Assembly: GCF_006345805.1 (NCBI RefSeq)
Contig: NW_021836493.1
Location: 1-24,112, forward strand
Reading direction: 5' to 3'
Length of the DNA stretch: 24,112 nt
Source of the DNA: Octopus sinensis
Taxonomy: Eukaryota
Numbering within the stretch: the stretch's first letter is position 1; each line of letters opens with the position of its first letter. This document shows, piece by piece, positions 1,204 through 1,298 of this stretch. The notes under the pieces are model-generated. The model saw only the letters and a list, made by a program, of their open reading frames with translations, was not told the origin of the DNA and did no database searches. Position numbers and translations under genes: made by a program.

Positions 1204-1298
1204 TTCTTGCAGACGATCGTTTCGTACAGAGATACAATAATATAAATTCCCGATTGAATTAAATTAAATAAATATCAACGTACTCTTCAGTGCAGGAA
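1204..1298 (-). ncRNA. Type I hammerhead ribozyme (Penelope-type, minimal stem III, long loop 2)
   Basis: Minus strand reads uuccugca-CUGAAGA-GUACG-[50 nt]-UGUAC-GAAAC-gauc-GUC-ugcaagaa. Stem I pairs 7 of 8, stem II has 5 bp with the G10.1-C11.1 pair, core boxes are intact, loop 3 is the palindrome GAUC. Predicted cleavage is between + positions 1212 and 1211. Confidence 0.8.

What the first reader, a model, noticed from the sequence alone, without database searches (positions are those of the whole stretch)
1204..1298. Core-intact type I hammerhead ribozyme with an unusually long (~50 nt) loop 2
Seen: on the minus strand all catalytic-core nucleotides are present (CUGAAGA, GAAA, GUC), with stem I uuccugca/ugcaagaa, stem II GUACG/UGUAC and a minimal stem III closed by palindromic GAUC. 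Established: Penelope-like elements carry such minimal hammerheads, thought to cleave as dimers via the palindromic loop 3. Unusual: loop 2 is about 50 nt of AU-rich sequence, long enough that descriptor searches with a short loop cap could miss it. Inference: a cephalopod hammerhead variant whose core is better preserved than the adjacent ORF.
Basis: partly seen in the sequence, partly recalled or inferred. Interest (0 to 1): 0.75.

Follow-up and report, generated by a model that had tools for sequence, protein, structure and literature searches.

The report
Long-armed hammerhead in dead Penelope end
This is a real hammerhead-ribozyme motif at the broken-off, decaying end of a Penelope-like jumping gene; its long 'loop' is inherited from the family and is predicted to fold as an extended hairpin, a form shared by well over 10,000 motifs in this genome that a published search pattern would miss.

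Summary
The motif is real: core, stems and palindrome lie where stated, with a predicted cut at 1212/1211. It sits 105 nt before the end of a 5'-truncated, purely non-coding piece of a Penelope-like element with Hydra-clade protein motifs, joined to an inverted partial copy. The 50-nt 'loop 2' is inherited: all 50 family copies aligned have a 54-94 nt domain II. Across families it is predicted to fold as an interrupted hairpin. It is common here: 16,196 strict matches with 46-106 nt domains against 154 controls, and roughly 45% of relaxed hammerhead-like rows. Stem I and the loop-3 palindrome covary across 28 clusters, which fits dimer cleavage. The published descriptor caps loop 2 at 10 nt, so it would miss these. 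This copy is not specially preserved: cores decay as fast as flanks (9 of 34 intact), the window holds no ORF of the element, no partner ribozyme lies in cis, and the monomer is predicted to misfold. Cleavage is untested. The scan found this class before on other DNA (13 notes). Verdict: a new variant of a known kind; this locus is a relic.

The parts
1107..2161 (-). Copy A: 5'-truncated 3' part (3' UTR and pLTR only) of a Penelope-like element; about 110 bp deleted near 1964; ends 105 nt after the predicted cut
   Evidence: colinear at 74-87% with L033, L041, L043, which carry the endonuclease upstream
1204..1298 (-). Type I hammerhead motif with 60-nt domain II
1291..1298 (-). Stem I, 5' arm
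1284..1290 (-). Core box CUGAAGA (C3-A9)
1224..1283 (-). Domain II: 5-bp basal helix, 2x2 internal loop, 5-bp helix, AU-rich middle, apical hairpin (predicted); carries 3 private changes against the family majority
1213..1223 (-). Core box GAAA and palindrome ACGAUCGU (stem III and loop 3)
1211..1212 (-). Predicted cleavage site, after C17 of GUC
   Evidence: hammerhead numbering (established knowledge); cleavage untested
1204..1211 (-). Stem I, 3' arm
2160..2453 (+). Copy B: inverted, more truncated copy joined to the 5' end of copy A; starts inside domain II, lacks CUGANGA and one A of GAAA; carries the 130-nt 3' extension
2454..2544 (.). (TA)n and (AG)n microsatellite flanking copy B
1042..1112 (.). 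CA/TA-rich microsatellite flanking the 3' end of copy A

Best explanation
The motif is the type I hammerhead at the 3' end of a Penelope-like retrotransposon with Hydra-clade motifs, left here as a truncated copy that is likely dead and decaying neutrally. In the active parent element the hammerhead would likely cut the RNA after GUC as a dimer: two tandem copies pair through the ACGAUCGU palindrome (inferred), possibly helped by the element's protein. The 50-nt 'loop' is a family trait, predicted to fold back as an interrupted extension of helix II. It likely grew by insertion at loop 2, where extra length points away from the core, and is kept as long as it folds back (inferred). Shown: sequence, repeat family, link to the endonuclease, decay rates, genome counts, cross-family pairing. 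Inferred: folds, dimer, cleavage, how the arm grew.
For: Family: 453 candidates, 40 scored. L033 and L041 run from a GIY-YIG-like frame (Pfam E 0.002, below cut-off) through a 1.5-1.7 kb UTR to the hammerhead. Own-family frames show CxCX5C, LYRDD, CxxC and CxH, as defined for Hydra. Relative L200 has two same-strand hammerheads 5.5 kb apart around an RT-EN frame, each with an 85-nt domain II. Across 28 clusters, stem I pairs in 85.7% of cells against 42.6% when partners are permuted (0 of 10,000 reach it); 21 of 28 loops 3 are palindromes, of 9 kinds. Domain II interiors fold better than shuffled interiors: mean z -2.0 for 29 against -0.3 for 150 controls, p 8e-8. Cofolding two window copies pairs the palindromes, -39.0 against 2 x -15.4 kcal/mol. 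Length is labile: 54-94 nt within the family; 22 against 62 nt and 19/23/38/44 nt in loci with shared flanks. Decay: core 42 of 396 cells changed, flanks 280 of 3251 and 236 of 2935; 9 of 34 copies keep the core.
Against: Within the family there is almost no covariation: RNAalifold predicts no structure, and 129 of 500 shuffles reach the observed number of two-sided pairs. The window copy's own interior is not significantly structured (z -1.1, p 0.14), and its basal stem II has probability 0.10 as a monomer; only 5 of 12 copies matching the core pattern have it at 0.7 or more. 5' ends do not pile up at the cut: 1 of 33 at +1. Cluster representatives were hand-picked from the first 100 listed rows and the best-folding member was used, which inflates the folding scores; clusters are not independent lineages. 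No tree was built; RWK-like and DKT motifs were seen only in relatives, and L200's 5.5 kb unit exceeds the published <3 kb.
Confidence: 0.72

Rival explanations
1. The long arm is a selected functional module, most likely a binding site for the element's own RT-endonuclease that licenses folding and cleavage or marks the template.
For: Long folded arms recur in many families with unrelated sequence. A model built from the window's family finds 8 other clusters at E<0.03. The anole PAc hammerhead cuts only with its protein (PMC11167929, passages). The monomer is predicted to misfold.
Against: Length varies 54-94 nt within the family and 19-62 nt among related loci. I saw no shared loop sequence. 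Published Hydra elements all have short arms, and short-armed motifs are as abundant here.
Confidence: 0.17
2. This particular copy has been kept by selection as a host ribozyme.
For: 0 changes in 44 core and stem positions against 15 in 266 elsewhere.
Against: That has probability 0.08 under neutrality, and the copy was picked because it is intact. 9 of 34 copies keep the core. There is no partner in cis, and the monomer is predicted to misfold.
Confidence: 0.03
3. The motif no longer cleaves in these families; it is conserved as an RNA fold or as a DNA promoter signal in the pLTR.
For: No pile-up of 5' ends at the cut. PAc inserts without cleavage in vitro. Metazoan PLE hammerheads cut poorly in vitro.
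Against: Core majority letters are identical between subfamilies (0 of 12) while upstream flanks differ at 29 of 86; palindromes and stem I covary as dimer catalysis needs. The downstream flank (11 of 84) is not significantly less conserved than the motif.
Confidence: 0.06
4. The long loop is a retained spliceosomal intron whose removal gives a short hammerhead.
For: PLEs carry introns near the hammerhead. Domain II begins with GUACGU, and some families hold GUAAG.
Against: The window's domain II holds no AG acceptor, and its GU is part of the basal helix.
Confidence: 0.02

Closest known systems
Hammerheads of Hydra-clade PLEs, including Hydra-1_Obim (Craig et al. 2021, PMC8557442; seen: passages, section 11, supplement part 2 with File S2, supplement searches)
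   Same: Type I motif near the 3' end; C-terminal GIY-YIG with CxCX5C linker, CxxC and CxH, no CCHH; (TA)n targets; inverted 5'-truncated partner.
   Different: All Hydra rows of File S2 have stem II of 3-7 bp and loop 2 of 3-10 nt. Here domain II is 60 nt (54-94 in the family), the 3' UTR about 1.7 kb, and the related unit L200 is 5.5 kb.
Minimal and palindromic-loop-3 hammerheads of metazoan PLEs (Cervera and de la Pena 2014, PMC4209133; seen: parts 1-2 of 4, passages, supplement file 2 passages; file 1 not searched)
   Same: Core, G10.1-C11.1, short palindromic helix III, pLTR position, presumed dimer cleavage.
   Different: Their 'larger' helix II is 7-8 bp; their descriptor allows at most about 25 nt for domain II and no loop 3. 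This motif has a tetraloop 3 and no extra base after A9.
PLE-X1 hammerheads of Selaginella (File S2 of PMC8557442)
   Same: PLE hammerheads entered with a loop 2 of about 30-35 nt, marked as deviating; a precedent for long domain II.
   Different: Two isolated plant elements of another clade; not a genome-wide class.
Non-LTR retrozymes (PMC7229834, passages; bioRxiv 10.64898/2026.07.22.740005, parts 1-2 of 5)
   Same: Type I dimer hammerheads; tandem long-arm arrays with 400-600 bp spacing occur in this genome.
   Different: The window copy is a truncated end of a coding family, not a tandem non-coding repeat.
PAc Poseidon element of Anolis (PMC11167929, passages)
   Same: PLE hammerhead in the pLTR; two alternative 3' ends (tail).
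   Different: Another clade; there the motif overlaps the ORF start. Protein-assisted cleavage is shown there and untested here.

Membership tests
Type I hammerhead ribozyme | Core CUGANGA, GAAA, NUH in order | tested here: met
Type I hammerhead ribozyme | Three helices, helix I open | tested here: met
   7 of 8, 5 and 2 pairs in the window; cross-cluster pairing above permutation; within-family covariation weak
Type I hammerhead ribozyme | Active fold favoured | tested here: inconclusive
   basal stem II probability 0.10 in the monomer; 0.95 or more in 4 of 12 core-pattern copies
Type I hammerhead ribozyme | Self-cleavage after H17 | not testable with these tools
   needs a bench assay
Type I hammerhead ribozyme | Loop 1 / loop 2 tertiary contact | not tested
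   none modelled
PLE dimer-type hammerhead | Short helix III with palindromic loop | tested here: met
   ACGAUCGU; 21 of 28 clusters palindromic
PLE dimer-type hammerhead | Stem II 3-7 bp with loop 2 of 3-10 nt (published descriptor) | tested here: not met
   60-nt domain II; descriptor
PLE dimer-type hammerhead | Second hammerhead on the same strand | tested here: not met
   absent in the window; present in relative L200
Hydra clade of PLEs | C-terminal GIY-YIG, CxCX5C linker, CxxC and CxH, no CCHH | tested here: met
   own-family loci L043, L060, L054, L041; Pfam GIY-YIG E 0.002, below cut-off
Hydra clade of PLEs | RWK and DKT motifs in the RT N-terminus | tested here: inconclusive
   RWR and DKT in relatives L200 and L202; no own-family copy examined reached that far
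Hydra clade of PLEs | Insertion in (TA)n | tested here: met
Hydra clade of PLEs | Generally short, under 3 kb | tested here: not met
   3' UTR about 1.7 kb; relative L200 unit 5.5 kb; a described tendency rather than a strict criterion
Hydra clade of PLEs | Placement in the RT tree | not tested
   no tree built
Non-LTR retrozyme | Short tandem non-coding repeats, each with a hammerhead | tested here: not met
   single truncated copy plus inverted fragment; family encodes an endonuclease

The most novel reading that the evidence does not exclude
This genome's Hydra-type elements have evolved a distinct hammerhead class in which helix II is a 45-105 nt segmented arm that docks the element's own RT-endonuclease and switches dimer cleavage on; tens of thousands of such ribozymes are hidden from published descriptors, and natural short and long pairs make the role of PLE hammerheads directly testable.
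Probability: 0.17. Interest if true: 0.72.

Novelty: new variant of a known kind. Interest (0 to 1): 0.45.

Why it matters
The locus itself is a dead fragment. The class matters in two ways. Censuses that cap loop 2 at 10 nt would miss roughly half of the hammerhead-like motifs in this genome. Related elements with 19-62 nt arms, and a near full-length relative with two ribozymes in cis, give ready constructs for the open question of what PLE hammerheads do and whether the element's protein assists them.

Tried and rejected
Rfam: no match in the window and none in 14 of 14 other loci, including 3 with short arms, so the Rfam miss cannot be blamed on arm length alone. 'Long arms are 89% of this genome's hammerheads' (16,196 of 18,167 strict rows) was dropped: the strict pattern fixes a 4-nt loop 3, and a relaxed pattern gives 66,960 short rows (control 6,336) against 60,507 long rows (control 10,417), with double counts. 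Within-family covariation: nothing by RNAalifold, weak by pair counts. Cleavage footprint in 5' ends: none. Expression: no RNA holder listed for the window stretch. Contigs of 4 runs guessed to be RNA, laid on relative L200, cover its hammerhead, one spans the cut site, and show no joints; contigs cannot show ends or strand, so this decides nothing. A tblastn hit at 1133-1564 came from a mis-cut query of mine that was the family's own UTR; it is not a protein remnant. Pfam found no RT family in 5 of 5 related long frames. The guess that the 'HHR_half_core' Naiads of PMC8557442 are long-arm hammerheads was not tested, and I dropped it after earlier notes proposed a permuted fold. Model R1 added only weak support. 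Literature searches found no description of a long-helix-II class. Lunse et al. 2017 on PLE hammerhead variants is not held, so nothing of it was seen and it may bear on novelty; bioRxiv supplements were not seen.

Full report
Observation. The minus strand reads stem I arm, CUGAAGA, GUACG, 50 nt, UGUAC, GAAA, C-GAUC-G, UC, stem I arm, at 1298-1204. The pattern occurs once in the window and in 0 of 100 shuffles. By hammerhead numbering (established knowledge) the cut falls between 1212 and 1211. Rfam does not report it. The whole motif folds no better than shuffles (z -0.43).

The element. The motif lies in a repeat with 453 candidate places, of which 40 were scored. Copy A spans 2161-1107 on the minus strand. 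An inverted copy B (2160-2453, 84% identical over 167 nt) is joined to its 5' end, begins inside domain II and lacks the first core box and one A of GAAA. Both outer ends meet microsatellites. Longer copies L033 and L041 run colinearly from an endonuclease frame through a 1.5-1.7 kb untranslated region to the hammerhead, so the window holds untranslated sequence only. Hydra-type proteins give no hit in the window below E 0.19. The endonuclease scores weakly against Pfam GIY-YIG (E 0.002, below cut-off). Own-family copies show the CxCX5C linker, LYRDD, CxxC and CxH and no CCHH; relatives add RWR and DKT. These are the marks given for the Hydra clade (PMC8557442 section 11). No tree was built. 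Relative L200 has two same-strand hammerheads 5.5 kb apart around the RT-EN frame, between (TA)n runs, each with an 85-nt domain II. The family has two 3' ends, +105 and +234 from the cut (7 and 26 of 33 ends), like the PLE tail.

The long loop is inherited and common. All 50 aligned family copies have a domain II of 54-94 nt. A strict pattern (4-nt loop 3, C11.1) finds 742 places with an 11-26 nt domain, 1,229 with 27-45, 14,063 with 46-76 and 2,133 with 77-106; reversed-pattern controls give 74, 58, 71 and 83. A relaxed pattern gives 66,960 short and 60,507 long rows, controls 6,336 and 10,417, with double counts. So long arms are about 45% of excess rows, not the large majority. Where an endonuclease frame lay upstream within the fetched flank, it matched Hydra-type queries for the main long-arm clusters; one locus (L178) matched another PLE type. 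The published descriptor allows stem II of 3-7 bp and loop 2 of 3-10 nt (PMC4209133 supplement), and all Hydra rows of File S2 fall inside that range. Two Selaginella elements there have loops of about 30-35 nt, a small precedent.

Structure. 154 motifs in the fetched loci fell into 39 clusters, 29 with domain II of 43 nt or more. With the basal helix held and the interior shuffled, 29 representatives have mean z -2.0 (14 below -2), against -0.3 for 150 control stretches (13 below -2), p 8e-8. The representatives were hand-picked from listed rows, the best-folding member was used, and three belong to the window's family. The window copy alone is not significant (p 0.14). Over 28 clusters (three own-family clusters dropped, L200 added) the first 4 pairs of stem I form in 85.7% of cells against 42.6% permuted, basal stem II in 70.5% against 48.2%, and 21 of 28 loops 3 are palindromes of 9 kinds, none of which the pattern demanded. 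Within the family the signal is weak: no RNAalifold consensus, and pair counts mostly within shuffles. One pair shifts from G.U (33 of 37) to A-U (12 of 13) between subfamilies, and the stem I mismatch stays at the same place as C.A or U.U. Arm length changes between related loci: 22 and 62 nt, and 19, 23, 38 and 44 nt.

Selection. In 34 rows chosen for likeness to the window, the 12 core positions differ from the majority in 42 of 396 cells (0.106), the flanks in 0.086 and 0.080; 9 of 34 keep the core. Inserted copies therefore decay neutrally. The window copy has 0 changes in 44 core and stem positions against 15 in 266 elsewhere, probability 0.08 before allowing for its selection. Between subfamilies the majority letters differ at 0 of 12 core, 3 of 32 stem, 29 of 86 upstream and 11 of 84 downstream positions; the contrast is significant only against upstream (p 0.0005 and 0.38). 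This fits selection on active parents, not on this copy.

Mechanism. The parent transcript, read through tandem units as in L200, would bring two hammerheads together. The palindromes would pair into one long helix III and each core would cut after GUC (inferred, from cofolding, and from the dimer model in PMC4209133). Activity is probably low without protein: the anole PAc motif cuts only with its protein and is not needed for insertion in vitro, and 5' ends here do not pile up at the cut. I take the arm to be a tolerated, folded-back growth of loop 2 because its length is so labile; a protein-docking role is the main rival. The window copy has no partner in cis and a monomer probability of 0.10 for basal stem II, so it is likely inert.

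Novelty. Eight searches found no paper on a long-helix-II class; the giant squid genome paper mentions only 235 Rfam hammerheads (passages). Lunse et al. 2017 could not be read. Further papers seen only as passages: PMC7229834, PMC6765202, PMC3088659, PMC6155905, PMC13725137. Earlier notes of this scan report the same class on other DNA (13 notes; none for this sequence); they are unchecked and came after my own analysis. Verdict: new variant of a known kind, interest 0.45.

Noticed in passing
L200:2208-7717 (minus): Near full-length Hydra-type element with two same-strand hammerheads (85-nt domain II, predicted -40 kcal/mol), a long Asn-rich insert between RT and endonuclease, and a 2 kb 3' UTR.
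   Followed up: partly
L147 and L120; L148, L145, L127, L139: Related loci whose domain II differs in length (22 against 62 nt; 19, 23, 38, 44 nt); L147 and L120 keep the same basal helix.
   Followed up: partly
L124, L125 and rows: Tandem arrays of long-arm hammerheads spaced about 400, 546 and 598 bp apart, retrozyme-like.
   Followed up: no
L214, L216, L224, L230: Several inverted pairs of the family have their junction 11-21 nt after the predicted cut, in an AT-rich stretch.
   Followed up: no
window 1323-1345 (minus): Pyrimidine tract ending in AG about 33 nt before the core, kept in both subfamilies; could be a 3' splice site like the pLTR intron of Drosophila Penelope.
   Followed up: no
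window 20937-22182 (plus): Broken frames that resemble a LINE reverse transcriptase (resemblance recalled, not searched).
   Followed up: no
window 906-974: 33-bp unit repeated twice, in sequence not matched by any fetched locus.
   Followed up: partly
window 3688-3842 (plus): SINE-like repeat between microsatellites (label recalled, not tested).
   Followed up: no
window 2376-2382 (plus) and 2556-2562 (minus): Isolated CUGAUGA boxes without a fitting second box or stems.
   Followed up: partly
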